DNA of 64,000 nt, taken from Gammaproteobacteria bacterium. GTDB taxonomy: Bacteria; Pseudomonadota; Gammaproteobacteria; Tethybacterales; Persebacteraceae. Positions 1 to 55,975 of the stretch are shown piece by piece (position 1 is the first letter of the stretch; every line of letters starts with the position of its first letter). Where the stretch lies: the NCBI GenBank assembly GCA_965221835.1, contig OZ244916.1, positions 329,947 to 393,946 of the forward strand, in the 5' to 3' direction. Made by a program: the position numbers and the translations under genes. Under the pieces are notes generated by a model. That model worked only from the letters and a program-made list of their open reading frames with translations, searched no databases and was not told where the DNA came from.

Positions 1-990
1 ATGAATATAACCATGATAAGCACGGAAAAAATTAGGATTAGAGAATGAACTGAATCTTTCAATCAGTTCAACGGCGATATGGTCCATATACACGGTATAT
101 CCGTCTCTGTTCGTTGTATGCGAATTCGCAACATCCTTAAACGAAAGCGTGTAGGTGAAATTATCCAATCGCACGGTAAAACCAAGATTAAAAAAGAAAG
201 GGGTAAGGTCAAAACTTTCGTTTTCAAATCGTGATGTATCCGGCTCGCAAGATTCAAACACACAAGGCGGAAGATATCGATCTCCAATGACGGGATTAAT
301 CGGCAAAGGCGGTGCGTCCAAAAACGAAGAGAGAGGGGGTTGTGGAATCAGAGTTTCGACAAAGGAATGCGGAGTTCCTTCTAATTCTCGTGTAACGCCC
401 ACTTGCCTCCATAACACCGAACGAAAAACCCTCGCCAATCTTGCATGTTCATCACTTCGCACGGTTTGCGTGACTCCCAAAATATCCGTGTAAATTACTG
501 TAAAACTATAAACATCGCCTTCGTCATAACCGTCGCCGGTATGCCCGATATTGACGGTGACATACGGCAGTTCTCCCTCCCGCCGAATACCCGCAATTTG
601 TACCGAAACACCGCTTACCGTTAATGTATTCGAGCCATAAATACGCAAATCGGCGGTGATATGGTCGCAACCCGATATATCTATAAAAGTACTAATCTGC
701 CTAAAAGTCAAAAAACGGGAATTCGGATGTCCAACATCTATTCCCGCAAAATTTTCTCGGATAACTTCGCCGGTGTGAATATCGGTTTGCTGACATCGCC
801 AATAATATTCGCCTCCTGCTCCCGCAACAATTCCCTCGTCAATTTCGGGGGACGGAAATACAACCGAAACCCGTTGCGAATCGTAATCCAAAGTAAGGTC
901 TACTGCAATATCCCCCGTAAATTGTGCAACCGCATTCCCCGCCCCGCAAAGTGCGAAAGCAGTTGCCAAAATTCTCCACAAAACTCTCAT
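1..990 (-). CDS. Partial CDS: N-terminal ~330 aa of a second giant repeat-adhesin paralog; the gene runs off the left edge of the window
   Basis: Manual reverse-complement translation from the ATG at 990 down to position 1 is open with no stops. It reads MRVLWRILATAFALCGAGNAVAQ... (signal peptide). It aligns block by block with the N-terminus of the 3653-aa protein at 37577 (YYWRC / YFWRC, GCDHI / KCDHI, GIRREGELPYVTVNIGHTGDGYDEGDVYSFTVIYTD vs GVRREGNPPHVTVNIDHIGDGYTEGDVYSFNVVYTD, ESCEPD vs ESCETE, YMDHIAVE vs YLDHFAVR). The ORF track omits it because no stop lies inside the window. Confidence 0.6.
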   Translation of the reverse strand, partial: MRVLWRILATAFALCGAGNAVAQFTGDIAVDLTLDYDSQRVSVVFPSPEIDEGIVAGAGGEYYWRCQQTDIHTGEVIRENFAGIDVGHPNSRFLTFRQISTFIDISGCDHITADLRIYGSNTLTVSGVSVQIAGIRREGELPYVTVNIGHTGDGYDEGDVYSFTVIYTDILGVTQTVRSDEHARLARVFRSVLWRQVGVTRELEGTPHSFVETLIPQPPLSSFLDAPPLPINPVIGDRYLPPCVFESCEPDTSRFENESFDLTPFFFNLGFTVRLDNFTYTLSFKDVANSHTTNRDGYTVYMDHIAVELIERFSSFSNPNFFRAYHGYIH

Positions 991-37576: not shown

Positions 37577-40500
37577 ATGAGATTTTTCCGGCGAATTTTG
37601 GCGATTCTTTTCGCCCTTTGCGGGGCGGAGGCGGCATTATCGCAAGAAATTACGATTAGTTTGGATGTTGCGGCAAAACAGATAACGGTTTTATCGCCGA
37701 GACCGACAAGGCAATTTAGATATTTTTGGCGGTGTGCGGAAACTAACCCTATCACAGGCGATGAAATCGAACTTGAATTTCTTCAGCGGGATACAAACCT
37801 ACCAAATTCTCAATTTTTAACTTTCGCCGAAATTGAAGAACATCTTAACGATAATATCAAATGCGATCATATTTCTTTGGCTTATGTGAGAAATGCTAAT
37901 GAAGTAATACGCAGCAATACTCTCCGAATTGTGGGCGTGCGGCGAGAAGGAAATCCGCCGCATGTCACCGTCAACATTGACCATATCGGCGATGGATATA
38001 CCGAAGGCGATGTTTATAGTTTCAATGTGGTATACACGGATTTATTTGGAGTCGTGCAAACCGTACGCAACGATGAAGAAGAAAGATTTAATGAGGTTTT
38101 TGGAAATGTGCAGTGGTTTAAGACGGGAATTAGAAGCAAGGATAACTTGATTGCATTTCCGTCATCTTCGTCTACTGATAATCTTTTTGTAAATCCGCCC
38201 TCTCCGTTTCCAGAAAGAAGATTTATTTTTTTACCAGTACGGGATATTGAATGTACGGGCGAATCTTGCGAAACTGAACTTATGCCGACATTGGGCGATG
38301 CCATAGCATATCAACCGATTGAAAGCCCGCCTCCACCACAATATCCTCATACCTATACACTATCGCACAGTCATTTTTCCGATTCGTACTACACCAGAGA
38401 TAACGGAGAAATAATATATTTAGACCATTTCGCCGTTCGGATAACAGACAAATGGGAACACACAGAACAACCATTTTCGGGGCTAACGCAATATGGAGTT
38501 TCTTGGGGATTTATTCCGAGAAACGAACCGACCGAAGTTTCTCAACTGGAACTTTATAGGAGTATTGACCCGTTCCAATTTTCCGGAACTCCGGCAGAAG
38601 AACCAGTTTCTTTCGGCGAATTTGCATTCGGTAGCGATAAAGAAAAACTTTACAACTTATTCAGCATTTCCGGAGACCTCAACAATGGCATTAAGCAAAG
38701 TACCAGATTTATATGGCAACACCGGATTAACGGCGGCGAATGGATAACTACGGAAGATGAAAGGATTGTCAGAGGAACTTATTTTACAAGTCCCGATCAT
38801 TTTGTCGGGGCGAAAATAGGGGACGAAATTCAAATTCGTGGCATATTGGATGTTGAAGACGGATGGGGATTGCGAAACTATTTATTTTCGCCCACATTAT
38901 CGCACACCGATATGCCGCCGACGGGAGATATGCAATTCATAGAGACCGGATTGCATGCAGAAGCGACGATAACCACCTCGCTGGATGAAATAGAAGACCC
39001 GGACGGAGAAATTGATGTACTTTCCTATCGTTGGCAAGCGGGAAATGGTACGGTTTTTACCGATGTACTTTTTCAAGAATATGATGAGGCAAACCGGAGA
39101 TTATTTGCCGACAGTATTAGAAATGTTCCGTACATTTTGGACGCATCCGTTTTCAATCAAGAAGGCAACAGCGGAATGCGAGTAATTGCGGAATTGACCG
39201 ACTCATTTTTTGGGCAGGCAACTATAACTTCCGGTTTCTTTCTGGTGAATCCCCCGACCGAAGGAACCGTTTCCATAAACGGCAATCCGTTATTTTCGGA
39301 CGGCGAAATATACACATTAACGAATGTTGACGAATTAACGGACGGCAACGGAATCGGCAGATTTAGTTATTCATGGTATGTAAGCATAGACGGCGGCAAT
39401 AGTTATGACAGAAGAGGGGCTTTTGGTACAACTTTCACATTAAAAGCATCTCACATTGCAGAGGCAAATGCAGATACGCCCGTATTGTTGCGTGCCGATG
39501 TGGTACATACCGATGCGGACAGATACACACAAACGCTTGTGGCTTTTTTTGAACAAAATTTTCCGACACAAGGCGAAATCACAATTGACGGCAATCCGAT
39601 GTTTGCGGCGGGCGAAATATACACCGCAATCACCGCCGAATTATCGGACAGCAACGAAATCGGCGGATTTACTTATCAATGGCTTGTGAGTTTTGATGAC
39701 GGCAATAACTATAATGAAATTGCGGGCGAGACGGGAGAAACTTACACGGCGGACACGGCGGATTTTGCGGGGGCGAATCCGAACACGCCGATATTTTTGG
39801 GCGTTTCGGCGGTGCATACCGATTTGGACGGCTACGCACAAACGATTACGGCATTTTTGGAACAGGATCTTCCGACACAAGGCGATATTGTTTTGAATGC
39901 TATTGCGAATCCTTTGGTGCTTGGCGAAGTCAAGTTTTCGGTGAATGTTGACGCATTGACGGACGGCAACGACATCGGCGATTTTGCATATCAATGGTTT
40001 GCGAGTATTGCCCGTGGTGCAGATTACAATCCGATTTCGGCGGCGACCGACAGATCGTACATATTGGACCGGTCGGATTTTGCGGGGGCGGCGGCGAATG
40101 AACCGGTGCGAATTTCGGTTTCGGTTGTGCATACCGATTTGGCGGGATATGAACAATCGTTCGGAGATTTTTTCGTGCAGAATCCTCGGACAGAAGGCGA
40201 GATAACAATTGACGGCAATCCGATGTTTGCGGACGGCGAAATATACACCGCAATCACTGCCGCATTATCGGACAGAAACGGAATCGGCGATTTTACTTAT
40301 CAATGGGTTATAAGTTTTGACGGCGGCAACAACTATAACACTAACGGAATTTTGGGAATCGATTCTACTTACACTTTGCGGGCGGAAGATATTGCGAATG
40401 CCGATGAAAACATTCCCGCCCTGCTGGGTGTTGCGGCGGTGCATACCGATTTGGACGGAAACACACAAACGTTAACGGCATCTTTTTTGCAAGATATTGC

Positions 40501-43500
40501 CGGCACAGGCAGCGTTTCAATTTCGGGTGCGAATTCATTTGCGGCGGGCGAAAAATATACAGCGATAACAAACATTGCGGATGCAAACGGAATCAGCGTT
40601 TTCGTTTATTCATGGCATGCAAGTACGGACGGCGGAAATAACTATACGCAAATAACAGATGCGAATTCGGAATCGTACACGCTTGCATTGTCAGATTTTG
40701 CCGGTGCAACTTCGGCGAATCCGGTGCATCTTTTGCTTTCAGTTGTGCATACCGACATGGGCGGATTTTCGGAGTTTTATTTGGCAACGCTAATTCATTC
40801 CGACACGGCGGCGGGTGGAAGTTTGGGAATTGAAATTCAAAACGGCGTAATTGCGGAAGATGCGATTGTGGAATTAAATACGGCGGGAATTTCGGACATA
40901 AACGGCGGGGGAATCGTTTCGCATTCGTGGCATTTGGATAACGGTGCGGCGATTGTCGGCGAAACTTCGGCGACTTATATTTTGTCATCGGCGAATTTAA
41001 CTTTGTCGGAAATTCGCAACGGCGTTTTACATTCGGAAGTTTTATATCGGGATTCGTTCGGTTATGAAACAAGATTTTCCATCACGCTATTCGGCGAAGG
41101 CGATGATGAAGAATACGATCCGGACAATCCGAATGAGTTGGATTCTATGGGAACGGGAACGGTTGCGATTTCGGGAACGATTTCGTTTGCGGCGAATGAA
41201 AGATATACGGCGGACATTTCGCAAATCGCTCCGAATGACGCAAACGGCGAAGGAGATTTCGCATATTCATGGCATACGAGTACGGACGGCGGAACGAATT
41301 ACAATTTAATATCGGGTGCGAATTCGGAATCGTACACGCTTGCATTGTCGGATTTTTCCGGTGCAACTTCGGCGAATCCGGTGCATCTTTTGCTTTCGGT
41401 TGTGCATACCGATTTCGGCGGATTTGATCAAAGTTATCTGGCGACTTTGATTCATTCCGACACGGCGGCGGGCGGAAGTTTGGGAATCGGAATTCAAAGC
41501 GGCGTAATTGCAGAAGGTGCGATTGTGGAATTAAACACGGCGGGAATTTCGGACATAAACGGCGGCGGAATCATTTCGCATTCGTGGCATTTGGATAACG
41601 GTGCGGCGATTGTCGGTGCAACGGCGGCGACTTATATTTTGTCATCGGCGAATTTAACTTTGTCGGAAATTCGCAACGGCGTTTTACATTCGGAAGTTTT
41701 ATATCGGGACGATTTCGGTTATGAAACGAGATTTTCCATCACGCTATTCGGCGAAGGCGATGATGAAGAATACGATCCGGACAATCCGAATGAGTTGGAT
41801 TCTTTGGGAACGGGAACGGTTGCGATTTCGGGAACGATTTCGTTTGCGGCGAATGAAAAATATACGGCGGACATTTCGGACATCGCTCCGAATGATGCAA
41901 ACGGCAAAGGGACTTTTACATATTCATGGCATACGAGTACGGACGGCGGAAATAACTATACGCAAATCACGGGGGCGACATTGGAGTTGTATACGCTTGC
42001 ATTGTCGGATTTTGCGGGTGCGAATGCGAATGCGGAAGTGCATTTGCGAGTTTCGGTTGTGCATACCGATTTCGGCGGATTTGATCAAAGTTATCTGGCG
42101 ACTTTAATTCATTCCGACACAGCGGCGGGTGGAAGTTTGGGAATTGGCATTCGGGACGGAATCATCGCCGAAGATGCGGTTGTGGAATTAGACACGGCGG
42201 GAATTTCGGACATAAACGGCGGGGGAATCGTTTCGCATTCGTGGCATTTGGATAACGGTGCGGCGATTGTCGGTGCGACTGCGGCGACTTATACATTGCA
42301 AGCGGCGAATTTAACTTTGTCGGAAATTCGCAACGGCGTTTTACATTCGGAAGTTTTGTATCGGGATTCGTTCGGCTATGAAACAAGATTTTCCATCACG
42401 CTATTCGGCGAAGGCGATGATGAAGAATACGATCCGAACAATCCGAATGAGTTGGATTCTTTGGGCACGGGAACGGTTGCGATTTCGGGGACGATTTCGT
42501 TTGCGGCGAATGAAAGATATACGGCGGACATTTCGGACATCGCTCCGAATGACGCAAACGGCAAAGGAGATTTCGCATATTCATGGCATACGAGTACGGA
42601 CGGCGGAACGAATTACGATTTAATTTCGGGGGCGACATTGGAGTTGTATACGCTTGCGTTGTCGGATTTCGCCGGTGCGAATGCGAATGCGGAAGTGCAT
42701 TTGCGAGTTTCGGTTGTGCATACCGATTTCGGCGGATTTGATCAAAGTTATCTGGCAACTTTGATTCATTCCGACACGGCGGCGGGCGGAAGTTTGGGAA
42801 TTGAAATTCAAAGCGGCGTAATTGCCGAAGATGCGATTGTGGAATTAGACACGGCGGCGATTTCGGACATAAACGGCGGCGGAATCGTTTCGCATTCATG
42901 GCATTTGGATAACGGTGCGGCGATTGTCGGCGCAACGGCGGCGACTTATATTTTGTCATCGGCGAATTTAACTTTGTCGGAAATTCGCAATGGCGTTTTA
43001 CATTCGGAAGTTTTATATCGGGATTCGTTCGGTTATGAAACGAGATTTTCCATCACACTATTCGGCGAAGGCGATGATTCCGTCTCGCCGAATCCCGATG
43101 ATCCGAATCGTCCCGGCACGACGACAAATCCGGTTGACCCCGGCGACAATCCGGGCGGCGAAGATCCGGACAATCCGGGAAACATTTTCGGCACAGGCAG
43201 CGTTTCAATTTCGGGTGCGAATTCATTTGCGGCGGGTGAGAAATATACAGCGATAACGAACATTGCGGATGCAAACAGAATCGGTACGGTTTCATATTCA
43301 TGGCAAGCGAGTACGGACGGCGGAACGAATTACAATTTAATAACGGATGCGAATTCGGAATCGTACACGCTTGCGTTGTCAGATTTTTCCGGTGCAACTT
43401 CGGCAAATCCGGTGCATCTTTTGCTTTCAGTTGTGCATACCGACATGGGCGGATTTTCGGAGTTTTATCTGGCAACTTTGATTCATTCCGACACAGCGGC

Positions 43501-46500
43501 GGGCGGAAGTTTGGGAATTGAAATTCAAAGCGGCGTAATTGCGGAAGGTGCGGTTGTGGAATTAGACACGGCGGGAATTTCGGACATAAACGGCGGGGGA
43601 ATCGTTTCGCATTCGTGGCATTTGGATAACGGTGCGGCGATTGTCGGCGAAACTTCGGCGACTTATATTTTGTCATCGGCGAATTTAACTTTATCGGAAA
43701 TTCGCAACGGCGTTTTACATTCGGAAGTTTTATATCGGGATTCGTTCGGTTATGAAACAAGATTTTCCATCACGCTATTCGGCGAAGGCGATGATGAAGA
43801 ATACGATCCGGACAATCCGAATGAGTTGGATTCTTTGGGCACGGGAACGGTTGCGATTTCGGGAACGATTTCGTTTGCGGCGAATGAAAAATATACGGCG
43901 GACATTTCGGACATCGCTCCGAATGATGCAAACGGCAAAGGGACTTTTACATATTCATGGCACACGAGTACGGACGGCGGAACGAATTACAATTTAATAT
44001 CGGATGCGAATTCGGAATCGTACACGCTTGCATTGTCGGATTTTGCGGGTGCGAATGCGAATGCGGAAGTGCATTTGCGAGTTTCGGTTGTGCATACCGA
44101 TTTCGGCGGATTTGATCAAAGTTATCTGGCAACTTTGATTCATTCCGACACAGCGGCGGGCGGAAGTTTGGGAATTGAAATTCAAAGCGGCGTAATTGCC
44201 GAAGATGCGATTGTGGAATTAGACACGGCGGGAATTTCGGACATAAACGGCGGGGGAATCGTTTCGCATTCGTGGCATTTGGATAACGGTGCGGCGATTG
44301 CCGGCGAAACTTCGGCGACTTATACTTTGCAAGCGGCGAATTTAACTTTGTCGGAAATTCGCAATGGCGTTTTACATTCGGAAGTTTTGTATCGGGATGA
44401 TTTCGGTTATGAAACAAGATTTTCCATCACACTATTCGGCGAAGGCGATGACGAAGAATACGATCCGGACAATCCGAATGAGTTGGATTCTATGGGAACG
44501 GGAACGGTTGCGATTTCGGGGACGATTTCGTTTGCGGCGAATGAAAAATATACGGCGGACATTTCGGACATCGCTCCGAATGATGCAAACGGCAAAGGGA
44601 CTTTTACATATTCATGGCATGCGAGTACGGACGGCGGAACGAATTACGATTTAATTTCGGGGGCGACATTGGAGTTGTATACGCTTGCGTTGTCGGATTT
44701 TGCCGGTGCGAATGCGAATGCGGAAGTGCATTTGCGAGTTTCGGTTGTGCATACCGATTTCGGCGGATTTGATCAAAGTTATCTGGCGACTTTGATTCAT
44801 TCGGATACGGCGGCGGGCGGAAGTTTGGGAATCGGAATTCGGGACGGAATCATCGCCGAAGATGCGGTTGTGGAATTAGACACGGCGGGAATTTCGGACA
44901 TAAACGGCGGGGGAATCGTTTCGCATTCATGGCATTTGGATAACGGTGCGGCGATTGTCGGCGAAACTTCGGCGACTTATATTTTGTCATCGGCGAATTT
45001 AACTTTGTCGGAAATTCGCAACGGCGTTTTACATTCGGAAGTTTTATATCGGGATTCGTTCGGTTATGAAACGAGATTTTCCATCACACTATTCGGCGAA
45101 GGCGATGATTCCGTCTCGCCGAATCCCGATGATCCGAATCGTCCCGGCACGACGACAAATCCGGTTGACCCCGGCGACAATCCGGGCGGCGAAGATCCGG
45201 ATAATCCGGGAAACATTTTCGGCACAGGCAGCGTTTCAATTTCGGGTGCGAATTCATTTGCGGCGGGTGAGAAATATACAGCGATAACAAACATTGCGGA
45301 TGCAAACAGAATCGGTACGGTTTCATATTCATGGCAAGCGAGTACGGACGGCGGAACGAATTACAATTTAATAACGGATGCGAATTCGGAATCGTACACG
45401 CTTTCGCTGGCGGATTTTGCCGGTGCAACTTCGGCAAATCCGGTGCATCTTTTGCTTTCAGTTGTGCATACCGACATGGGCGGATTTTCGGAGTTTTATC
45501 TGGCAACTTTGATTCATTCCGACACGGCGGCGGGCGGAAGTTTGGGAATTGAAATTCAAAATGGCGTAATTGCGGAAGATGCGATTGTGGAATTAGACAC
45601 TGCCGGAGTTTCGGACATAAACGGCGGGGGAATCGTTTCGCATTCGTGGCATTTGGATAACGGTGCGGCGATTGTCGGGGCGGATGCGGCGACTTATACA
45701 TTGCAAGCGGCGAATTTAACTTTGTCGGAAATTCGCAACGGCGTTTTACATTCGGAAGTTTTATATCGGGATTCGTTCGGTTATGAAACAAGATTTTCCA
45801 TCACGCTATTCGGCGAAGGCGATGATGAAGAATACGATCCGAACAATCCGAATGAGTTGGATTCTATCGGCACGGGAACGGTGGCGATTTCGGGAACGAT
45901 TTCGTTTGCGGCGAATGAAAAATACACGGCGGACATTTCGGACATCGCTCCGAATGATGCAAACGGCGAAGGAGATTTCGCATATTCATGGCATGCGAGT
46001 ACGGACGGCGGAACGAATTACGATTTAATTTCGGGGGCGACATTGGAGTTGTATACGCTTGCGTTGTCGGATTTTGCCGGTGCGAATGCGAATGCGGAAG
46101 TGCATTTGCGAGTTTCGGTTGTGCATACCGATTTCGGCGGATTTGATCAAAGTTATCTGGCAACTTTGATTCATTCCGACACGGCGGCGGGCGGAAGTTT
46201 GGGAATTGTCGCCGCCGGTTTGATGGCGGGCGATTTGGTGACGGCGGATGCGGCGGGATTGACGGACGCAAACGGGGCGTTGACAATTTCATATCGCTGG
46301 CAAACGGGCGAACGAAATACGCCGGAAAGTTTTGCGGATCTTGTCGGCGAAACGGAAGCGGTTTATACAATTTATGCGGATGATTATGATTCCGATTCGC
46401 GAGATTCGTTGCGGCTGATTGCAAGAACGGCGGATCCGTTCGGCGGCGAGACGCAAATTACGAGTGCGATATTGCCGATCAATCGCGAAACCGAAGGGCG

Positions 46501-48538
46501 AATTTCGTTGGAGTTGGTCGGCGGAGAAATTGTTGCGGGGGCGACGATACGATTGCGGACGGATGCGGTATCGGATGAAAACGGCGGCGGTTTTGAAAAA
46601 TATTATTGGTTTATAAACGATCTTTTGTTGATGGAAGAAAATGACGATTTTCTTGTCGTGCGGTCGGATGATTTGCGCGATATTGCGGCGGGCGGATTGC
46701 GGGCGGAGGCGAAGTATGTTGACGGAATCGGATTTACCGTTCGGTTGTCGGCGAGATTGATTGCTGCCGGTATTGTCGCACCGTCGCCGGAAGAAATCGC
46801 GAATTGGTCGGTCGTTATAGAAACCGAAGGCGTTGCGTTCGGCGAGGATTTGGCACGGGCGAATTTGATTGGCGCGGAACAATCGGATTATTACGAAGTT
46901 TTCTATCGCTGGCGAACAGGCGTTGGCATCGCTTTTGCCGATGAAAGGAATGTCGGCGGCGTTGGCAACTATCATCAGTTGGAAGCGGCGAATTTTAATC
47001 CGCAAGATCATTTGCGGGCGATTGCCGAAGTGGAGTTATTGTCCGGCGCTTTTGTCACGCTTACTTCGGCGCCGGTGCAAATTGATTATCCGTCTATCGG
47101 TGCGGTGCGAATTGTCGCCGGCGAGTTGCTGGCGCCGGGGGTTGTGGTCAGTGCGGATATTTCTGATGTGCGGGATGCGAATGGCGGCATAAACGTTGTT
47201 TCTGAAAGATGGTTGTATGCAGATACGCCTGTTGCGATGGCGCGCAGTTATACCTTAACCGAAGAAGCGGTGCATGCCGGAAAAGTTTTTTATGAGGCGA
47301 TTTTTGCGGACGCTGCCGGTTTTCGTACATCGTTGCGGGCGGAAGCAAATGTGGGAGGCGAAGTATCATCCGAAAAAGCCGAAGCAATAATTGGTGCGGT
47401 CAATGCAGCGGCGATTGACGGATTGTGGAACGCGTTGGAGGGGCATTTGGATAGCGAAGCCGGATGGCGTGCGAATGGTGCGCCGATTGAAGATCCATCG
47501 CAAATCGCCGCGGCATTGTCGCGCCGTGATGAAAATTCTTTGCATCCCGATTCGCCGTTTGCGTTGGATTCGTTTGCGTTGAAAGAATCGGGCGGCGAGG
47601 CGGGTGAAGAATGGTCGTGGTGGGCGCACGGGTCGCGGAGTAGATTGAAAGGAAAGCCGATTATCGACGGCGAGGAAGTAAAATATCACGGCGATTATGC
47701 ATCTTTTCATGCGGGAATGGATCGGCAAATCAGCGACACGATGCGCGCCGGACTCGCTTTCGGTGCGGACGATGCGGATTTGGATGTGGAATGGCGCAAA
47801 GGCGTAGACGGACGGTTGCGGCAGAATATTCGTTCGCTGATTCCATATACGGAATGGCGTCCGGATGATTTGACGAATGTGCGCATATTGGCGGGCTACG
47901 GCGAAGGCGATATTTATTTGGCGGAACACGATAACGCATCCAGGGCATCCGCCCGCCGGACATTGTTCGGCATTCGCGCCGCCCGCCGCAAAGATTTGGC
48001 GGACAATTTTGATATTACTTTTTCGGGCGGATTTGACAAAACGCGTCTGCAAACGGGCGCGATTGATTTGCCCGGATTGCAAGATGATTTGGACGCCCGC
48101 ACGAAAGAAACACATGCGCGAGTGAGAGGTGGACATATTTCATTGTTGCCGGCAAAAGGATCATTGCACAAAGAAATAAGTTTGCGTTGGCGTTCGCAAT
48201 CAGTAGCGGGCGACAGAGATAGCGTTTTTGATTTCGGCATCGGATTTAATGCGACATTGCCGGAATATTTTCTTTCGTTCGGGGCGGACGGCGAACGGCA
48301 ACTAACCGACTCGGCACACGAACGAAATCGTTTCGGCGTTTATATCGCCTACGGTGCCGGACGATTTGCGCATATTTTGGAAACCCGTTATGACAACGAA
48401 ATAGCGTTACCACAAAATCGCTGGCAAATTAACACCGTTTCAGAATGGGGCGTCAGCGAACTTCTCACCGGCGTTTATGTGGAACATAACGGCAACGCAG
48501 ATCTTAGAATCGGCTGGGAATCTAATCTTCTGTTTTAA
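37577..48538 (+). CDS. Giant (3653 aa) secreted repeat protein: signal peptide, unique N-terminal domain, diverged ~110-aa modules, about 9 near-identical ~219/238-aa tandem repeats, and a ~330-aa C-terminal autotransporter-like beta-domain ending in Phe
   Basis: One uninterrupted 10.96 kb ORF. Signal peptide MRFFRRILAILFALCGAEA-ALS. Repeat blocks (...GTGTVAISGTISFAANEKYTADISDIAPNDANGKG.F.YSWH.STDGG.NY...VHLRVSVVHTDFGGFDQSYLATLIHSDTAAGGSLGIEIQSGVIAEDAIVELDTAGISDINGGGIVSHSWHLDNGAAIVG..SATY.L..ANLTLSEIRNGVLHSEVLYRDSFGYETRFSITLFGEGDDEEYDPDNPNELDS) are identical except at scattered residues. The C-terminus (...WSWWAHGSRSRLKG... to ...IGWESNLLF) resembles the start and end of type Va autotransporter barrels. 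Confidence 0.8.
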   Translation: MRFFRRILAILFALCGAEAALSQEITISLDVAAKQITVLSPRPTRQFRYFWRCAETNPITGDEIELEFLQRDTNLPNSQFLTFAEIEEHLNDNIKCDHISLAYVRNANEVIRSNTLRIVGVRREGNPPHVTVNIDHIGDGYTEGDVYSFNVVYTDLFGVVQTVRNDEEERFNEVFGNVQWFKTGIRSKDNLIAFPSSSSTDNLFVNPPSPFPERRFIFLPVRDIECTGESCETELMPTLGDAIAYQPIESPPPPQYPHTYTLSHSHFSDSYYTRDNGEIIYLDHFAVRITDKWEHTEQPFSGLTQYGVSWGFIPRNEPTEVSQLELYRSIDPFQFSGTPAEEPVSFGEFAFGSDKEKLYNLFSISGDLNNGIKQSTRFIWQHRINGGEWITTEDERIVRGTYFTSPDHFVGAKIGDEIQIRGILDVEDGWGLRNYLFSPTLSHTDMPPTGDMQFIETGLHAEATITTSLDEIEDPDGEIDVLSYRWQAGNGTVFTDVLFQEYDEANRRLFADSIRNVPYILDASVFNQEGNSGMRVIAELTDSFFGQATITSGFFLVNPPTEGTVSINGNPLFSDGEIYTLTNVDELTDGNGIGRFSYSWYVSIDGGNSYDRRGAFGTTFTLKASHIAEANADTPVLLRADVVHTDADRYTQTLVAFFEQNFPTQGEITIDGNPMFAAGEIYTAITAELSDSNEIGGFTYQWLVSFDDGNNYNEIAGETGETYTADTADFAGANPNTPIFLGVSAVHTDLDGYAQTITAFLEQDLPTQGDIVLNAIANPLVLGEVKFSVNVDALTDGNDIGDFAYQWFASIARGADYNPISAATDRSYILDRSDFAGAAANEPVRISVSVVHTDLAGYEQSFGDFFVQNPRTEGEITIDGNPMFADGEIYTAITAALSDRNGIGDFTYQWVISFDGGNNYNTNGILGIDSTYTLRAEDIANADENIPALLGVAAVHTDLDGNTQTLTASFLQDIAGTGSVSISGANSFAAGEKYTAITNIADANGISVFVYSWHASTDGGNNYTQITDANSESYTLALSDFAGATSANPVHLLLSVVHTDMGGFSEFYLATLIHSDTAAGGSLGIEIQNGVIAEDAIVELNTAGISDINGGGIVSHSWHLDNGAAIVGETSATYILSSANLTLSEIRNGVLHSEVLYRDSFGYETRFSITLFGEGDDEEYDPDNPNELDSMGTGTVAISGTISFAANERYTADISQIAPNDANGEGDFAYSWHTSTDGGTNYNLISGANSESYTLALSDFSGATSANPVHLLLSVVHTDFGGFDQSYLATLIHSDTAAGGSLGIGIQSGVIAEGAIVELNTAGISDINGGGIISHSWHLDNGAAIVGATAATYILSSANLTLSEIRNGVLHSEVLYRDDFGYETRFSITLFGEGDDEEYDPDNPNELDSLGTGTVAISGTISFAANEKYTADISDIAPNDANGKGTFTYSWHTSTDGGNNYTQITGATLELYTLALSDFAGANANAEVHLRVSVVHTDFGGFDQSYLATLIHSDTAAGGSLGIGIRDGIIAEDAVVELDTAGISDINGGGIVSHSWHLDNGAAIVGATAATYTLQAANLTLSEIRNGVLHSEVLYRDSFGYETRFSITLFGEGDDEEYDPNNPNELDSLGTGTVAISGTISFAANERYTADISDIAPNDANGKGDFAYSWHTSTDGGTNYDLISGATLELYTLALSDFAGANANAEVHLRVSVVHTDFGGFDQSYLATLIHSDTAAGGSLGIEIQSGVIAEDAIVELDTAAISDINGGGIVSHSWHLDNGAAIVGATAATYILSSANLTLSEIRNGVLHSEVLYRDSFGYETRFSITLFGEGDDSVSPNPDDPNRPGTTTNPVDPGDNPGGEDPDNPGNIFGTGSVSISGANSFAAGEKYTAITNIADANRIGTVSYSWQASTDGGTNYNLITDANSESYTLALSDFSGATSANPVHLLLSVVHTDMGGFSEFYLATLIHSDTAAGGSLGIEIQSGVIAEGAVVELDTAGISDINGGGIVSHSWHLDNGAAIVGETSATYILSSANLTLSEIRNGVLHSEVLYRDSFGYETRFSITLFGEGDDEEYDPDNPNELDSLGTGTVAISGTISFAANEKYTADISDIAPNDANGKGTFTYSWHTSTDGGTNYNLISDANSESYTLALSDFAGANANAEVHLRVSVVHTDFGGFDQSYLATLIHSDTAAGGSLGIEIQSGVIAEDAIVELDTAGISDINGGGIVSHSWHLDNGAAIAGETSATYTLQAANLTLSEIRNGVLHSEVLYRDDFGYETRFSITLFGEGDDEEYDPDNPNELDSMGTGTVAISGTISFAANEKYTADISDIAPNDANGKGTFTYSWHASTDGGTNYDLISGATLELYTLALSDFAGANANAEVHLRVSVVHTDFGGFDQSYLATLIHSDTAAGGSLGIGIRDGIIAEDAVVELDTAGISDINGGGIVSHSWHLDNGAAIVGETSATYILSSANLTLSEIRNGVLHSEVLYRDSFGYETRFSITLFGEGDDSVSPNPDDPNRPGTTTNPVDPGDNPGGEDPDNPGNIFGTGSVSISGANSFAAGEKYTAITNIADANRIGTVSYSWQASTDGGTNYNLITDANSESYTLSLADFAGATSANPVHLLLSVVHTDMGGFSEFYLATLIHSDTAAGGSLGIEIQNGVIAEDAIVELDTAGVSDINGGGIVSHSWHLDNGAAIVGADAATYTLQAANLTLSEIRNGVLHSEVLYRDSFGYETRFSITLFGEGDDEEYDPNNPNELDSIGTGTVAISGTISFAANEKYTADISDIAPNDANGEGDFAYSWHASTDGGTNYDLISGATLELYTLALSDFAGANANAEVHLRVSVVHTDFGGFDQSYLATLIHSDTAAGGSLGIVAAGLMAGDLVTADAAGLTDANGALTISYRWQTGERNTPESFADLVGETEAVYTIYADDYDSDSRDSLRLIARTADPFGGETQITSAILPINRETEGRISLELVGGEIVAGATIRLRTDAVSDENGGGFEKYYWFINDLLLMEENDDFLVVRSDDLRDIAAGGLRAEAKYVDGIGFTVRLSARLIAAGIVAPSPEEIANWSVVIETEGVAFGEDLARANLIGAEQSDYYEVFYRWRTGVGIAFADERNVGGVGNYHQLEAANFNPQDHLRAIAEVELLSGAFVTLTSAPVQIDYPSIGAVRIVAGELLAPGVVVSADISDVRDANGGINVVSERWLYADTPVAMARSYTLTEEAVHAGKVFYEAIFADAAGFRTSLRAEANVGGEVSSEKAEAIIGAVNAAAIDGLWNALEGHLDSEAGWRANGAPIEDPSQIAAALSRRDENSLHPDSPFALDSFALKESGGEAGEEWSWWAHGSRSRLKGKPIIDGEEVKYHGDYASFHAGMDRQISDTMRAGLAFGADDADLDVEWRKGVDGRLRQNIRSLIPYTEWRPDDLTNVRILAGYGEGDIYLAEHDNASRASARRTLFGIRAARRKDLADNFDITFSGGFDKTRLQTGAIDLPGLQDDLDARTKETHARVRGGHISLLPAKGSLHKEISLRWRSQSVAGDRDSVFDFGIGFNATLPEYFLSFGADGERQLTDSAHERNRFGVYIAYGAGRFAHILETRYDNEIALPQNRWQINTVSEWGVSELLTGVYVEHNGNADLRIGWESNLLF
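40500..46210 (+). repeat. Intragenic tandem array: about 9 copies of a 657-bp unit (two copies 714-717 bp with an added Pro/Asp-rich linker), >95% identical, arranged as a ~2031-bp higher-order repeat
   Basis: The antisense and alternate-frame ORFs in the supplied track recur with identical sequence at fixed spacing (41719/42376/43750/44407; 41064/42378/43752/45783; 43033..43263 = 45064..45294; 43053..43760 = 45084..45791; 43300..43521 = 45331..45552). Older diverged ~330-bp repeats precede the array at 39230-40500. Confidence 0.85.
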
Positions 48539-48639
48539 TATATTCCGAAAATTTTTTTCGGCGGTTTTGCTTTTTTAAGATATTCCGAAAATTTTTTTTT
48601 CGGCGATTTTGTTTTTTTAAGATATTCCGAAATCCCCGC

Positions 48640-48830: not shown

Positions 48831-49265
48831 TTTGTCTTTGGCGCAATCGCTCGCTTTTAGCAAACAATATTTTCCGCATTTTTTACGGGCAACGAGTTCG
48901 GCTTTTTCTTTCGTGCCTCCTCTTGCCAAAGAATAGCGGAATTTTTTCTCTTCATTATGAATGTACAGTGCGAAACATTTTGCGCCTCCGGCGGAAAGAC
49001 GACGGCAGGGTTTAAGCCCCCGATTCTGTTTTGCGCGATTCTGTTCGCAAAATCCCCGTGCGGCAGCGTTCGCCTCATTAATATTCTCACGGCGTGCCCA
49101 ACCGAATGCATATCCGCCGTGTTTGCCGGGTTTTGCCAACCACACGGCGGCGATGTCTTCTTGGGTATGCTGTATAAATTTATGCACATAACCTTTCGCA
49201 CTTGCAGACGGCGAAACCGCCAACAAAATCGCAAACAGCGAAATAATAAATGTTCGTTTTTTCAT
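48828..49265 (-). CDS. Small secreted Cys-containing protein (DUF4189-like), 145 aa
   Basis: Strong SD (aaggag) and signal peptide MKKRTFIISLFAILLAVSPSASA-KG. ...GGYAFGWARREN...AAARGFC... resembles DUF4189 periplasmic proteins (family assignment from memory only). Confidence 0.45.
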   Translation of the reverse strand: MKKRTFIISLFAILLAVSPSASAKGYVHKFIQHTQEDIAAVWLAKPGKHGGYAFGWARRENINEANAAARGFCEQNRAKQNRGLKPCRRLSAGGAKCFALYIHNEEKKFRYSLARGGTKEKAELVARKKCGKYCLLKASDCAKDK

Positions 49266-49507
49266 TCTGTTCTCCTTTTTTATGGATATTAAAAGCGGAA
49301 ATGAATTCCGCACGGAAAAGATTATACAAAAAAACGGCGGGGAATCTAATCTTTTGTTTTAAGATATTCCACCGATTTCGTTTCTGGCGGTTTTGGAATT
49401 CGTGGTTTGTTTGTATTTTCCGAAAATGGAGTTGTGGCGGGCGGGGAATGATTTTTCTGGCGCGGATTTTCATCATAAAAGGGGGCGTGTCTGCTACAAT
49501 TGCGGGC

Positions 49508-50749
49508 ATGCCGTTCGCGCTGATTAAGTATGCGTTTCGCCGCCGTCCGTTGCCGCGTTTTTTGCCGCCTTCGCCGCCGCGCAAAAAAAATTACGATGTC
49601 GTCATTATCGGCGGCGGCGGACACGGGCTGGCATGCGCATATTATCTTGCCGCCCGCCATGGCATTCGCAATGTTGCGGTGTTTGAACGCGGCTGGCTCG
49701 GCGGCGGCAATACCGCGCGCAATACCGCCATTATTCGGGCGAATTATCTGACCGCCGAGGCGATTCGTTTTTACGGCGAATCGGCGCGAATGTTCGCCGG
49801 TTTGTCGCGCGAGTTGGACTATAATATTTTGTATTCTCCGCGCGGACATTTGACATTGGCGCACACCGATGCCGCTTGTCGTACCGCCCGTTGGCGCGCA
49901 AATATGAACCGGCATTCGGGCGAAGAATCGCATTTTATCGGCGCGGACGAAGTCGCCAAAATATGCCCCGAAATTAATCTTTCCGCATCGGCGCGTTATC
50001 CGGTTTTGGGGGCGTTGTATCATCCGCCGGGGGCTATCGCCCGTCACGATGCGGTCGCATGGGGATATGCGGCGCGTGCTGCCGAGTTGGGAGTCGCGAT
50101 TTTTCCGCACACCGAAGTGACCGGCATTATGCGCGAAAACGGCGAAGTGCGCGGCGTTTGTCTGGCGGACGGCGAAGAGATTTTTGCGGGGGCGGTGATG
50201 CAAGCGACAGCGGGTGCAAGTTCGGCGGTTGCGGCGCTTGCCGGATTTAAATTGCCGCTGATAAGTATTCCGTTGCAGGCGATGGTGTCGCAACCGCTGG
50301 CGCCGTTTTTGGACCCGATTATCGTTTCCGGTTCTTTGCATGTCTATATTTCGCAATCATCGCGCGGCGAATTGGTGATGGGCGGCAGTGTGGATCCGCG
50401 TCCGTTGCATTCGCCGCGTTCCACGGCGCGATTTAAAGAATCGCTCGCTGGCGACATCGTGCAGTTGTTTCCGTTTCTCGGCGAGGTGCGCGTTTTGCGG
50501 CAGTGGGCGGGAATTGCAGACATGACTCCCGATTTTTCGCCGCTGATGGGCGAGACGCCGCTGAAAAACTATTACATAGATGCCGGCTGGGGGACATGGG
50601 GATTTAAGGCGACGCCGGTGTGCGGAAAAACGATGGCGGAAACCATTGCCGCCGGACGCGCACCGCCGATTATCGCGCCGTATTCGTTGTCGCGATTTGA
50701 CGATTTGAATCTGGTCGGCGAAAAAGGCGCGGCGGCGGTCGGGCATTGA
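49508..50749 (+). CDS. soxB: Heterotetrameric sarcosine oxidase beta-subunit homolog (FAD-dependent oxidoreductase)
   Basis: YDVVIIGGGGHGLACAYYLA dinucleotide fold, ...GGGNTARNTAIIR... typical of SoxB. First gene of a B-D-A-G order. Confidence 0.8.
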   Translation: MPFALIKYAFRRRPLPRFLPPSPPRKKNYDVVIIGGGGHGLACAYYLAARHGIRNVAVFERGWLGGGNTARNTAIIRANYLTAEAIRFYGESARMFAGLSRELDYNILYSPRGHLTLAHTDAACRTARWRANMNRHSGEESHFIGADEVAKICPEINLSASARYPVLGALYHPPGAIARHDAVAWGYAARAAELGVAIFPHTEVTGIMRENGEVRGVCLADGEEIFAGAVMQATAGASSAVAALAGFKLPLISIPLQAMVSQPLAPFLDPIIVSGSLHVYISQSSRGELVMGGSVDPRPLHSPRSTARFKESLAGDIVQLFPFLGEVRVLRQWAGIADMTPDFSPLMGETPLKNYYIDAGWGTWGFKATPVCGKTMAETIAAGRAPPIIAPYSLSRFDDLNLVGEKGAAAVGH

Positions 50750-55271: not shown

Positions 55272-55284
55272 ACGCGGCAAGTTT

Positions 55285-55975
55285 TTAATCGGAATTCGGA
55301 AAATTCCGATTTTCATCTGAATTTAGAAAATTACGATTTTCACCGTAATTCGGAAAACTCCGATTTTCACCAGAATGCCATTTTATGAACATCGCCGCCC
55401 GCCGCCGTTTCCATCCTCGCAAAACGCGGAAATTAAATAGGCGCGTTTTTCATCATAATTTGGAAAATTCCGATTTTTATCTGAATTTAGAAAATTACAA
55501 TTTTTATCGCAATTCGGAAAACTCCGATTTTCATCTGAATTTAGAAAATTACGATTTTCACCGTAATTCGTAAAATTCCGATTTTCACCAGAACGCTATT
55601 TTATAAACACCGCCCGCCGCCGCCGTTTCCATCCTCGCAAACGCGGAAATTAAATAGGCGCGTTTTTCATCGGAATTCGGAAAATTCCGTTTTTCATCCG
55701 AATTCGGAAAATTAAGATTTTTATCAGAACGCTATTTTATGAACTCCGCCCGCCGCCCGTTTCCATCTTTGCGAACGCGGAAATGAAATAGGCGCGTTTT
55801 TTATCATAATTCAGAAAATTCCGTTTTTCATCATAATTCGGAAAATTCAAATTTTCACCGGAATTCGGAAAACTCCGATTTTTATCAGAACGCTATTTAT
55901 GAACGCCGCCCGTTTCCATCTTCGCAAAACGCGGAAATGGAAAAGATGATTTTTTTTATAAAACAGTGATTCGGT
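55285..55975. repeat. Complex intergenic tandem repeat array: about 14 copies of a 26-28-bp hairpin-capable unit (AATTCGGAAAAyTCCGATTTTCAyC) interleaved with 4 copies of a ~80-bp unit
   Basis: gaattcggaaaattccgattttcatc, tgaatttagaaaattacgattttcacc and gtaattcggaaaactccgattttcacc alternate with ...gccattttatgaacatcgccgcccgccgccgtttccatcctcgcaaaacgcggaaattaaataggcgcgtttttcat. Each cggaa-aa-ttccg core can form a 5-bp stem. Confidence 0.7.

What the first reader, a model, noticed from the sequence alone, without database searches (positions are those of the whole stretch)
43075..45110. Higher-order ~2031-bp super-repeat inside the array, marked by a Pro/Asp-rich linker inserted in every third unit
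The segment DSVSPNPDDPNRPGTTTNPVDPGDNPGGEDPDNPGNIFGTGSVSISGANSFAAGEKYTAITNIADANRIGTVSYSWQASTDGG occurs twice, at about 43075 and 45105. The alternate-frame ORFs 43033..43263, 43053..43760 and 43300..43521 are duplicated exactly at 45064..45294, 45084..45791 and 45331..45552. The array therefore grew by duplicating a 3-unit block that holds two unit flavours (DMGGFSEFY and DFGGFDQSY). This is a recent segmental duplication layered on the 657-bp periodicity.
Basis: seen in the sequence. Interest (0 to 1): 0.55.

Follow-up and report, generated by a model that had tools for sequence, protein, structure and literature searches.

The report
Patchwork repeat array in giant adhesin gene
The 2031-base super-repeat is real, but it is an ordinary, strain-specific by-product of recombination between near-identical repeat units in the stalk-coding part of a giant surface-adhesin-like gene, not a clean recent three-unit duplication or a designed feature.

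Summary
The finding lies inside one 10,962-nt ORF (37577-48538, +). It encodes a 3653-aa protein with a signal peptide, about 25 Ig-like ~100-aa domains and a C-terminal autotransporter beta-barrel (Pfam PF03797). Nine 657-nt two-domain units (A+B+linker) form an array at 40502-46210.

The 83-aa segment occurs exactly twice, at 43076 and 45107, 2031 nt apart. Similarity at lag 2031 runs from 41262 to 46210 (about 2.45 periods, 94.1%). The alternate-frame ORFs are not exact copies (2/231, 27/708 and 6/222 mismatches).

The reading "recent 3-unit duplication" is only partly right.
- Only about 0.38 kb is near-identical (42992-43372 vs 45023-45403, 2 mismatches). It covers the end of the B domain, the long linker and the first half of the S-type A domain.
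- Elsewhere lag-2031 identity (92.8-93.5%) equals the background between any two units.
- Mismatches are clustered, and the nearest relative of the last units changes every 100-150 nt.
- In 17 homologues the long linker sits at variable positions (0-3 copies) but always precedes an S-type A domain (27/27).
- The closest allele is 100% identical over 2387 nt up to 45045 and lacks the second copy.

So this is a mosaic made by unequal crossover and gene conversion. In kind it matches the variable-length "Periscope" adhesin class. A side observation: a second, inverted paralogue and a 36-kb inversion polymorphism.

The parts
37577..48538 (+). Single giant ORF (3653 aa) that contains the whole finding. 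Layout: N-terminal signal peptide, about 430 aa of unassigned head region, about 25 Ig-like domains, C-terminal beta-barrel.
   Evidence: ORF list, translation, domain scan, Pfam. There are 17 homologues of 2229-3677 aa.
37577..37633 (+). Probable Sec signal peptide (MRFFRRILAILFALCGAEA | AL).
   Evidence: Read directly from the translation: basic n-region, hydrophobic core, AxA motif. No signal-peptide predictor was available.
38939..47362 (+). String of about 25 homologous ~100-aa beta-sandwich (Ig/PKD-like) domains, aa 455-3262.
   Evidence: Iterated HMM search of the protein against itself found 25 domain hits. Alignment A1 has invariant G, D-x-N, W and D positions. The AF2 model shows two beta-sandwiches. 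Foldseek hits are tandem Ig/FN3 domains and adhesin extender regions.
40502..46174 (+). Array of nine two-domain units (A + B + linker). A domains start at 40502, 41150, 41807, 42464, 43190, 43838, 44495, 45221 and 45869. U9 has only its A domain before the sequence diverges.
41262..46210 (+). Span over which 2031-nt periodic similarity is detectable (about 2.45 periods, 94.1% identity).
43079..43189 (+). Long Pro/Asp-rich linker, copy 1 (L4; 37 aa, SVSPNPDDPNRPGTTTNPVDPGDNPGGEDPDNPGNIF). It replaces the 14-aa linker EEYDPDNPNELDSx.
   Evidence: It is predicted to be disordered (pLDDT below 50 for residues 1-38 of the model).
45110..45220 (+). Long Pro/Asp-rich linker, copy 2 (L7). It differs from L4 at 1 of 111 nt.
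43190..43486 (+). S-type A domain A5 (99 aa; GTGSVSISGANS...MGGFSEFY). The other S-type copies are A1 (40502-40798) and A8 (45221-45517).
   Evidence: A5 vs A8 differ at 6/297 nt and A5 vs A1 at 32/297 nt.
42992..43372 (+). Donor-side copy of the only near-identical tract: end of B4, L4 and the first 183 nt of A5.
   Evidence: 2 mismatches in 381 nt against 45023-45403.
45023..45403 (+). Recipient-side copy of the near-identical tract: end of B7, L7 and the first 183 nt of A8.
45023..45045 (+). Interval that holds the left recombination junction. Up to 45022 the window follows the B7 of allele L001 and differs from its own B4. From 45046 it follows its own B4/L4 and differs from L001.
   Evidence: Lag-2031 mismatch list combined with the window-vs-L001 mismatch list.
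42659..45045 (+). 2387-nt tract that is 100% identical to the orthologous allele L001 (protein P0002). That allele lacks the second long linker and S unit.
47666..48310 (+). Autotransporter beta-domain (Pfam PF03797). The protein ends ...NLLF.
   Evidence: 45.9 bits against a curated cut-off of 26, E 7.7e-12, profile positions 15-246 of 255. C-terminal residue.
1..990 (-). 5' end of a second, inverted paralogue of the giant gene (MRVLWRILATAFALCGAGNAVAQFTGD...). It runs off the left end of the window.
   Evidence: Its head is of the same type as P0007, P0012 and P0014.

Best explanation
The region is the stalk-coding part of a giant autotransporter-type surface protein.

Structure of the array. 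The stalk is built from a 657-nt unit that encodes two Ig-like domains (A and B) plus a short acidic linker. The units are 89-95% identical at DNA level, and the last third of the B domain is almost invariant. This gives RecA-type homologous recombination long substrates in several registers.

How the pattern arose. Repeated unequal crossovers and short gene-conversion tracts have turned the array into a patchwork. These exchanges occur within the gene, between sister copies, between the two paralogues in the genome and between strains. They also change the number of units.

The linker cassette. One sequence block behaves as a single cassette: the 111-nt Pro/Asp-rich linker plus the S-type first half of the A domain. 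It has no alignable counterpart in the ordinary units, so exchanges can only resolve in the conserved sequence on either side of it.

Origin of the 2031-nt period. In this strain a second copy of the cassette was placed after B7. The left junction lies at 45023-45045 and the right end near 45403, a tract of about 0.38 kb. The two cassettes happen to lie three units apart, and that spacing creates the 2031-nt period. The weaker lag-3 resemblance of U3/U6 and U4/U7 is probably the remnant of an older multi-unit exchange.

Function. The repeat number sets the length of the stalk. The long linker is most likely a disordered, flexible spacer between rigid domain pairs.

Status of each step.
- Shown: the anatomy, the mosaic pattern, the junction, the variability among alleles and the linkage of the linker to the S-type domain.
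- Inferred: the recombination mechanism and the stalk and hinge functions.
For: - One ORF with 25 homologous domains and a PF03797 barrel.
- Uneven divergence at lag 2031: 2/381 mismatches in the core tract against 20/309 and 25/348 just downstream.
- Mismatches clustered: dispersion index 3.38 against at most 1.46 in shuffles.
- The table of variable sites shows blocks of variants shared in different combinations among units. For example, A2 is T-type at its 5' end and carries the S-type SANPVHLLL block.
- B domains have no lag-3 signal.
- The nearest relative of U8-U9 switches every 100-150 nt among eight alleles and paralogues.
- The junction is mapped to 45023-45045.
- Allele L001 is identical over 2387 nt but lacks the copy.
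- The 18 alleles have 3-9 A domains and 0-3 long linkers, with linkers 1, 2, 3 or 4 units apart.
- 27 of 27 long linkers are followed by an S-type A domain. None of 59 short linkers is.
- The longest exact run at lag 2031 is 179 nt, at the end of the B domain.
- pN/pS is about 0.3, so the domains are under purifying selection and are not decaying.
- In the AF2 model the linker residues 1-38 have pLDDT below 50, followed by two beta-sandwiches.
- Foldseek hits include extender regions of giant adhesins: 4p99, 6xi3, 5irb and GhpA.
- Homologous recombination as the source of repeat-number variation in such proteins is the standard view (PMC9704523).
Against: - No recombination event was observed directly. 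The history is inferred from one sequence per strain.
- At whole-unit level three consecutive units are mutual nearest neighbours at lag 3. A genuine three-unit duplication at some earlier time is therefore not excluded and is in fact likely.
- The donor of the second cassette cannot be identified. The window's own L4/A5 and that of L001 are identical to each other, and the window's other paralogue lies outside the window.
- The AF2 model has only moderate confidence (mean pLDDT 66.8, pTM 0.45).
- All alleles come from metagenome assemblies, and I could not check the accuracy of their repeat regions.
Confidence: 0.75

Rival explanations
1. One recent tandem duplication of a complete 3-unit, 2031-bp block, followed only by point substitutions, produced the second linker and the period.
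For: - 2031 is the best lag.
- U3-U5 vs U6-U8 aligns without gaps at 94.7%, the best of all triplet pairs.
- U3/U6, U4/U7 and U5/U8 are mutual nearest units.
Against: - Divergence ranges from 0.5% to 7.2% along the block, and mismatches come in patches.
- B5-B8, B4-B7 and B3-B6 are no closer than random B pairs. A9 is closer to A4 than to A6.
- U1-U3 vs U5-U7 (lag 4 units) is nearly as similar, at 94.0%.
- pS between the copies is 0.118, against about 1.2% nucleotide divergence in RecG between strains.
- L001 is identical over U4B-U7B yet has no third block. It differs in length by one unit (717 nt), not by 2031 nt.
Confidence: 0.12
2. The second linker and S unit did not arise within this gene. 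The gene would be a chimera. Its 5' part (up to about 45045) would come from the RecG-side paralogue. Its 3' part (L7 onwards) would come from the other, inverted paralogue, joined by the crossover that inverted the 36-kb segment between the two genes. The 2031-nt period would then be an accident of where the two arrays were fused.
For: - A second paralogue starts at 990 on the minus strand.
- The window gene has RecG upstream and SoxB/D/A downstream. L001 and L002 have RecG upstream and polyprenyl synthase downstream.
- L020, on the same contig as L001, has the Sox flank.
- L021, L023 and L025 carry the reciprocal combination.
- Identity to L001 ends abruptly at 45046-45109, exactly where the second cassette begins.
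- The 3' 2.3 kb of all paralogues and orthologues is 97.5-98.5% identical in every pairing. The paralogues therefore exchange sequence.
Against: - The SVSPNP-type linker of L7 is 110/111 identical to the window's own L4. Among the loci fetched it is otherwise seen only in L001 and L021. The Sox-side gene of the L001 genome (L020) has the EVANP-type linker instead.
- The homogenised tails carry no paralogue-specific markers, so the inversion crossover cannot be placed.
- The window's own second paralogue is not available for comparison.
Confidence: 0.25
3. The three-unit spacing of the long linker is a selected structural design: a flexible hinge after every six Ig-like domains.
For: - The linker is predicted to be disordered, between folded domain pairs.
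- Mixtures of flexible and rigid linkers are described for intimin (PMC9704523).
Against: - Among 18 alleles the long linker occurs 0, 1, 2 or 3 times, with linkers 1, 2, 3 or 4 units apart.
- Four alleles of complete proteins have no long linker at all, and three have runs with one after every unit.
- In the window the rule rests on two copies only.
Confidence: 0.04
4. Assembly artefact. The unit order in this part of the window is a mis-join or collapse of near-identical repeats.
For: - Repeat arrays of this kind break or confuse assemblies. The GTDB representative contig L003 ends inside this gene.
Against: - The ORF is intact over 10,962 nt.
- The units differ by 5-10%, which is enough for long reads to resolve.
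- An independent assembly (L001) is 100% identical over 2387 nt of the array.
- Comparable variable layouts are seen in eight other loci from long contigs.
Confidence: 0.06

Closest known systems
[quoted passage not shown]
   Same: - A single-chain surface protein with a stalk of near-identical, individually folding domains.
- Repeat number differs among strains (3-9 units here).
- High DNA identity between repeats.
- Homologous recombination is the presumed mechanism.
- The repeating unit has two domains, as in the G5-E unit of SasG.
   Different: - The anchor is a C-terminal PF03797 barrel, not a sortase motif or an N-terminal inverse-autotransporter barrel.
- The units are 89-95% rather than almost 100% identical, and they form a fine-scale mosaic with two flavours and two linker types.
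- A rod shape and any length-dependent function were not tested.
Ig-like extender regions of giant RTX/T1SS adhesins (MpIBP RII, PDB 4p99 and 5irb; 6xi3) and GhpA of Aureispira (9flw, 9fls)
   Same: - Best Foldseek matches of the modelled unit are tandem beta-sandwich extender domains.
- Conserved acidic D-x-N and T-D motifs could bind Ca2+ as in MpIBP. This last point is an inference.
   Different: - Only 13-16% sequence identity and low TM-scores (0.26-0.28) on a moderate-confidence model.
- A different secretion and anchoring system (type V barrel rather than T1SS).
- No sequence-level match to any PDB chain.
Classical (type Va) autotransporters
   Same: - N-terminal signal peptide.
- C-terminal PF03797 beta-domain above Pfam's gathering score.
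- Terminal aromatic residue.
   Different: Type Va passengers usually form a beta-helix. Long strings of Ig-like domains are typical of type Ve inverse autotransporters (PMC6555100). Here the passenger is about 25 Ig-like domains.
Higher-order repeats produced by unequal crossing-over in tandem arrays (the concept comes from alpha-satellite DNA; cited from my own knowledge)
   Same: - The period is an integer number of base units.
- Units one period apart are more alike than neighbouring units.
   Different: - Only 2.45 periods.
- The copies are not homogenised as blocks.
- Most of the signal comes from one 0.38-kb cassette.
- The pattern is absent from other alleles.
RecA-dependent inversion between inverted sap (S-layer) gene homologues in Campylobacter fetus (from my own knowledge; relevant only to the side observation)
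   Same: Inverted paralogous surface-protein genes flank an invertible segment. Recombination within the shared sequence re-assorts gene parts.
   Different: - Here both genes appear complete, each with its own 5' end.
- The segment is about 36 kb and holds housekeeping genes.
- No evidence of programmed or frequent switching. Only a polymorphism among genomes is seen.

Membership tests
   657+657+717 = 2031. U3/U6, U4/U7 and U5/U8 are mutual nearest units. The best triplet pair is at lag 3, at 94.7%.
   Divergence is 0.5% in 42992-43372 against 6.5-7.2% downstream. Dispersion index 3.38 against at most 1.46 in shuffles. B domains show no lag-3 signal. The lag-4 triplet is 94.0% identical.
Classical (type Va) autotransporter | C-terminal 12-stranded beta-barrel translocator (Pfam PF03797). 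| tested here: met
   45.9 bits against a cut-off of 26, E 7.7e-12, profile positions 15-246 of 255. The strand number itself was not modelled.
Classical (type Va) autotransporter | N-terminal Sec signal peptide and a C-terminal aromatic residue. | tested here: met
   MRFFRRILAILFALCGAEA|AL at the N-terminus and ...NLLF at the C-terminus, read from the translation. No predictor was run.
Classical (type Va) autotransporter | Beta-helical passenger (usual but not obligatory; PMC6555100). | tested here: not met
   The passenger is about 25 Ig-like beta-sandwich domains.
Classical (type Va) autotransporter | An alpha-helical linker threads the barrel pore, and the passenger is exported to the surface. 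| not tested
   The homologues are too similar to give a useful alignment for modelling the barrel. Export needs experiment.
Periscope Proteins (PMC9704523) | Tandem repeat domains that are highly identical within one chain. | tested here: met
   Units are 81-96% identical at DNA level, and B domains 90-97%. This is lower than the near-100% of the classic examples.
Periscope Proteins (PMC9704523) | Repeat number varies between closely related strains. | tested here: met
   There are 3-9 A domains in 18 alleles, with protein lengths of 2229-3677 aa. The flanking RecG gene is 97-99% identical at DNA level between the window and L001, L002 and L003.
Periscope Proteins (PMC9704523) | The repeats fold individually and form an anisotropic rod that projects a functional domain from the cell surface. 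| tested here: inconclusive
   AF2 gives two separate beta-sandwiches per unit, but mean pLDDT is 66.8 and pTM 0.45. Rod shape and the function of the head were not tested.
PKD / bacterial Ig-like domain families in Pfam | A single domain scores above a family's gathering threshold. | tested here: not met
   For one unit, only PKD_5 is found at E 0.2. K319L-like_PKD reaches 45 bits only as a sum over the whole protein, with no stretch significant on its own. A profile of the domain finds 10,456 representative proteins, some of which hit IG_AIR9, PKD_3 or Ig_2. The domain is therefore a divergent Ig-like type without a dedicated Pfam model.

The most novel reading that the evidence does not exclude
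The locus would belong to an undescribed family of giant classical-topology autotransporters whose passenger is a string of about 25 Ig-like domains instead of a beta-helix. The family is present as two inverted paralogues about 36 kb apart. Recombination between them would invert the intervening chromosome segment and re-assort heads, stalk arrays and tails. Together with cassette-like movement of the long linker and S module, this would act as a population-level system for diversifying surface proteins in an uncultured bacterial lineage.
Probability: 0.3. Interest if true: 0.55.

Novelty: new member of a known kind. Interest (0 to 1): 0.3.

Why it matters
The super-repeat itself matters little. 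It shows that this stalk array is being reshuffled by homologous recombination, as in other variable-length adhesins.

It is a useful caution. A higher-order period in a repeat array can come from one short conversion tract plus background similarity, and need not be a block duplication.

The surrounding gene is of more interest.
- It is a giant autotransporter-type protein with an all-Ig-like passenger.
- It is found in only 17 database entries out of 5.8 billion clusters.
- It is present as two inverted paralogues that flank an inversion polymorphism.
- Short-read assemblies break inside it.

Tried and rejected
- Tandem Repeats Finder did not report the array, because its longest period is 500. 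I used the repeat finder and my own lag scans instead.
- Pfam on the whole protein gave misleading summed hits (LpxD, Nebulin, MATH, Phage_tail_C_2) with no individually significant stretch. I rejected these as repeat artefacts. The NCBIfam ZirU hit (50.7 bits against a cut-off of 100) was rejected as below threshold.
- Rfam found only one tRNA, far from the region.
- PDB sequence searches with the domain profile and with the C-terminal 445 aa found nothing significant.
- A genome-contig scan with the C-terminal 712 aa found no relative. The RecG scan found one close MAG contig (L003, labelled Spirochaetia bacterium), and that contig ends inside the gene. The label is doubtful, because the next-best RecG matches are a gammaproteobacterial MAG (68%) and Rhodobacterales (about 42%).
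- I tried to place the inversion crossover by comparing the last 2300 nt of seven genes. All pairs are 97.5-98.5% identical with no paralogue-specific signal, so it cannot be placed.
- I tried to find a single donor for U8-U9 among eight loci. There is none, because the best match changes every 100-150 nt.
- I considered that the alternate-frame ORFs might be genes. I rejected this because they lie inside a conserved 3653-aa ORF under purifying selection (pN/pS about 0.3) and recur only because the DNA is repeated.
- I did not model the barrel or the head. The available homologues are too similar to give a useful alignment.

Full report
**What is at the coordinates**

The finding (43075-45110) lies inside a single 10,962-nt ORF, 37577-48538 on the + strand, which encodes 3653 aa.
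- The protein starts with a typical Sec signal sequence (MRFFRRILAILFALCGAEA|AL; read).
- About 430 aa follow with no family match.
- An iterated HMM search of the protein against itself then finds about 25 homologous ~100-aa domains between aa 455 and 3262 (alignment).
- The last 345 aa match the Pfam Autotransporter beta-domain PF03797 above its curated threshold (45.9 bits against 26). The protein ends in ...NLLF.

An AlphaFold2 model of one long linker plus one A+B unit has moderate confidence (mean pLDDT 66.8). It shows a disordered linker (residues 1-38, pLDDT below 50) followed by two beta-sandwiches. Its Foldseek matches in the PDB are tandem Ig/FN3 pairs. They include the extender regions of giant adhesins (4p99, 5irb, 6xi3) and the grappling-hook protein GhpA.

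A profile of the domain finds 10,456 representative proteins in 1.84 billion. Many are giant multi-repeat proteins, and some hit IG_AIR9, PKD_3 or Ig_2. The domain is therefore a divergent Ig-like type. The whole protein is most simply read as a giant autotransporter-anchored adhesin-like stalk.

**Anatomy of the array**

Nine units start at 40502, 41150, 41807, 42464, 43190, 43838, 44495, 45221 and 45869.
- Each unit is an A domain (306 nt, or 297 nt in the S flavour), a B domain (309 nt) and a linker (42 nt, or 111 nt in the long form).
- S-flavour A domains (GTGSVSISGANS...MGGFSEFY) are U1, U5 and U8. The rest are T flavour (GTGTVAISGTIS...FGGFDQSY).
- The long Pro/Asp-rich linker occurs twice, at 43079-43189 (L4) and 45110-45220 (L7), each time directly before an S-type A domain.
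- The arithmetic of the period is 726+648+657 = 2031 nt.

**Checking the observation**

Confirmed:
- The 83-aa string is present exactly twice, at nt 43076-43324 and 45107-45355.
- Gapless identity at lag 2031 is 94.07% over 2919 nt (41262-44180 vs 43293-46211). That is about 2.45 periods.
- 2031 is the best lag.
- The alternate-frame ORFs exist at the stated coordinates.

Not confirmed as worded:
- The ORF pairs differ at 2/231, 27/708 and 6/222 nt, so they are not exact duplicates. They are mechanical by-products of the repeated coding sequence.
- 'Every third unit' rests on two copies only. U1, the third S unit, is four units from U5.

**Testing the interpretation**

I did this per block, per unit, per domain and per site.

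In favour of a three-unit period:
- The triplet U3-U5 vs U6-U8 aligns without gaps at 94.7%, the best of all triplet pairs.
- U3/U6, U4/U7 and U5/U8 are mutual nearest neighbours at whole-unit level.

Against a clean recent block duplication:
- The lag-4 triplet U1-U3 vs U5-U7 is 94.0% identical.
- Divergence along the block is very uneven. There are 2 mismatches in 381 nt for 42992-43372 vs 45023-45403. By contrast there are 20/309 for B5 vs B8 and 25/348 for L5+A6 vs L8+A9. The last two values are ordinary for any pair of B domains or T-type A domains.
- Mismatches come in patches. The dispersion index in 30-nt bins is 3.38, against at most 1.46 in 2000 shuffles.
- B5 is closest to B1 (8 mismatches), not to B8 (20). 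A9 is closest to A4 (8), not to A6 (22). A3 is closest to A7.
- The table of variable sites shows blocks of variants shared in different combinations among units. A2, for example, has a T-type 5' end and the S-type SANPVHLLL block.
- Synonymous divergence between the copies is 0.118 and pN/pS is about 0.3. Most of the similarity is therefore old and maintained under purifying selection.

**Evidence from other alleles**

Only 17 homologues exist in the 5.8-billion-cluster database, all from ENA assemblies. They are 2229-3677 aa long.
- They have 3-9 A domains and 0-3 long linkers, with linkers 1, 2, 3 or 4 units apart. Four alleles of complete proteins have none, and three have runs with a long linker after every unit. 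The three-unit spacing is peculiar to this window.
- One rule is absolute. All 27 long linkers are followed by an S-type A domain, and none of 59 short linkers is. Each allele has exactly one more S-type A domain than long linkers, the extra one being the first unit. The long linker plus the S-type 5' half therefore behaves as one cassette, bounded by conserved sequence on both sides.

The closest allele is L001 (protein P0002; RecG flank 98.8% identical).
- It is collinear with the window and 100% identical over 42659-45045 (2387 nt).
- It differs at 45046 and 45073, and diverges completely from 45109.
- It has a short linker and a T unit where the window has L7 and U8.

Combining this with the lag-2031 mismatch list places a junction at 45023-45045. 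Up to 45022 the window follows L001's B7 and differs from its own B4. From 45046 it follows its own B4/L4 and differs from L001. The near-identical tract ends near 45403. Downstream of that point, the nearest relative of the window sequence switches every 100-150 nt among eight alleles and paralogues.

**Best explanation**

The array is a recombination patchwork. The units are similar enough for homologous recombination in several registers, and the 3' third of B is almost invariant (a 179-nt exact run at lag 2031). Unequal crossovers change the number of units. Short conversion tracts move variant patches and the long-linker/S cassette.

In this strain a second cassette copy of about 0.38 kb was placed after B7, three units from the first. 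That placement, plus an older and now blurred lag-3 relationship of U3/U6 and U4/U7, gives the 2031-nt period.

The order of events is then:
1. The S and T flavours and the two linker types arose (oldest; shared by all alleles).
2. Multi-unit exchanges followed, at about 5-7% divergence.
3. The cassette copy is the most recent event (0.5% divergence).

The mechanism is inferred, not observed. Functionally, repeat number would set the length of the stalk, and the long linker would act as a flexible spacer. Both points are inferences from the fold model and from the literature on variable-length adhesins (PMC9704523).

**A complication, and a side observation**

A second paralogue of the giant gene starts at window position 990 on the minus strand and runs off the left end. 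The two genes are inverted repeats about 36.6 kb apart. Their flanks differ among genomes in two configurations.
- Configuration I: RecG-giant-polyprenyl synthase, and glutamine synthetase-like gene/481-aa gene-giant-Sox. It is seen in L001 and L020 on one contig, and L002 shows the RecG-side gene.
- Configuration II: RecG-giant-SoxB/D/A, and a reciprocal gene whose downstream flank is polyprenyl synthase. It is seen in the window, L022/L023 and L024/L025. L021 shows the reciprocal gene.

This is what recombination between the inverted genes would produce: inversion of the intervening segment and exchange of the 3' parts. The last 2300 nt of all seven genes are 97.5-98.5% identical in every pairing, with no paralogue-specific signal. 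The paralogues therefore evolve in concert, and the crossover cannot be placed.

It remains possible (I estimate about 25%) that the window's L7-U8-U9 came from the other paralogue through such a crossover, with the junction at 45023-45045. That is a special case of the same mechanism.

**Comparison with known systems**

- In kind, this matches the Periscope class of variable-length surface proteins. These have near-identical tandem domains, strain-to-strain differences in repeat number and homologous recombination as the presumed cause (PMC9704523). The two-domain unit recalls the G5-E repeats of SasG.
- It differs in its anchor (a C-terminal PF03797 barrel), in lower and mosaic repeat identity, and in having two flavours and two linker types.
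- As an autotransporter it has type Va topology but an Ig-like passenger. According to the review read here, such passengers are typical of inverse (type Ve) autotransporters, while type Va passengers are usually beta-helical (PMC6555100). Export and barrel structure were not tested.
- As a higher-order repeat it meets the period criterion but fails the uniform-divergence criterion.

**Verdict**

There is a three-unit periodicity, but it is not a clean recent segmental duplication, and the linker spacing is not a feature of the family. The phenomenon is ordinary for repeat-rich adhesin genes, so this is a new member of a known kind and of low-to-moderate interest. The unusual architecture of the gene and the paralogue inversion polymorphism are the parts that deserve follow-up.

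Noticed in passing
window 1-990 (minus strand) and 37577-48538 (plus strand); loci L001, L002, L020-L025: The window holds the 5' end of a second, inverted paralogue of the giant gene, about 36.6 kb from the first. Among seven genomes the genes' outer flanks occur in two configurations. RecG-giant-Sox occurs in the window, L022 and L024, and RecG-giant-polyprenyl synthase in L001 and L002. The reciprocal gene, whose upstream flank varies, occurs in L021, L023, L025 and L020. This is as expected for an inversion by recombination between the two genes.
   Followed up: yes
window 47666-48310 together with 38939-47362: A C-terminal classical autotransporter barrel (PF03797) is combined with a passenger of about 25 Ig-like domains. 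According to the reviews read, Ig-like strings are typical of inverse (type Ve) autotransporters, not of type Va. Only 17 homologues exist in the 5.8-billion-cluster database.
   Followed up: partly
window 42659-45045 vs L001 8083-10469: There are 2387 nt of perfect identity between two strains inside the array. The first units of the same gene differ strongly (A1 57/297, A2 39/306 mismatches), and the RecG flank differs by 1.2%. This suggests recent exchange of part of the array between strains.
   Followed up: partly
L003 (GTDB representative MAG contig CBDCPJ010000029.1, labelled Spirochaetia bacterium): The only close genome in the GTDB species set has a 6.1-kb contig that ends inside this gene at the first repeated domains. 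Short-read assemblies evidently break here, so the family is probably under-sampled. The taxonomic label is doubtful, because the next-best RecG matches are a gammaproteobacterial MAG (68%) and Rhodobacterales (about 42%).
   Followed up: partly
window 55283-55887 and 48533-48632: There are intergenic tandem repeats. One is a 27-nt palindromic-looking unit (TTTTCATCGGAATTCGGAAAATTCCGA) in several arrays, nested in a 134-nt period. The other is a 42-nt repeat that starts at the stop codon of the giant gene. The 42-nt repeat region is conserved in the other loci (blast alignments reach 48632).
   Followed up: no
L025 1771-2721; L024 1730-2992: In one genome an integrase/transposase-like gene (rve, HTH_38) sits directly upstream of the second paralogue. 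Extra small ORFs lie between RecG and the giant gene. The promoter-proximal regions of these genes are therefore also variable.
   Followed up: no
window 49250-50749 (+) and 49346-50356 (-): These are overlapping ORF calls downstream of the giant gene. The plus-strand ORF is the DAO/SoxB-like gene (433 aa in the other loci), with an apparent N-terminal over-extension to 499 aa. The minus-strand 336-aa ORF has no family hit and is probably spurious.
   Followed up: partly
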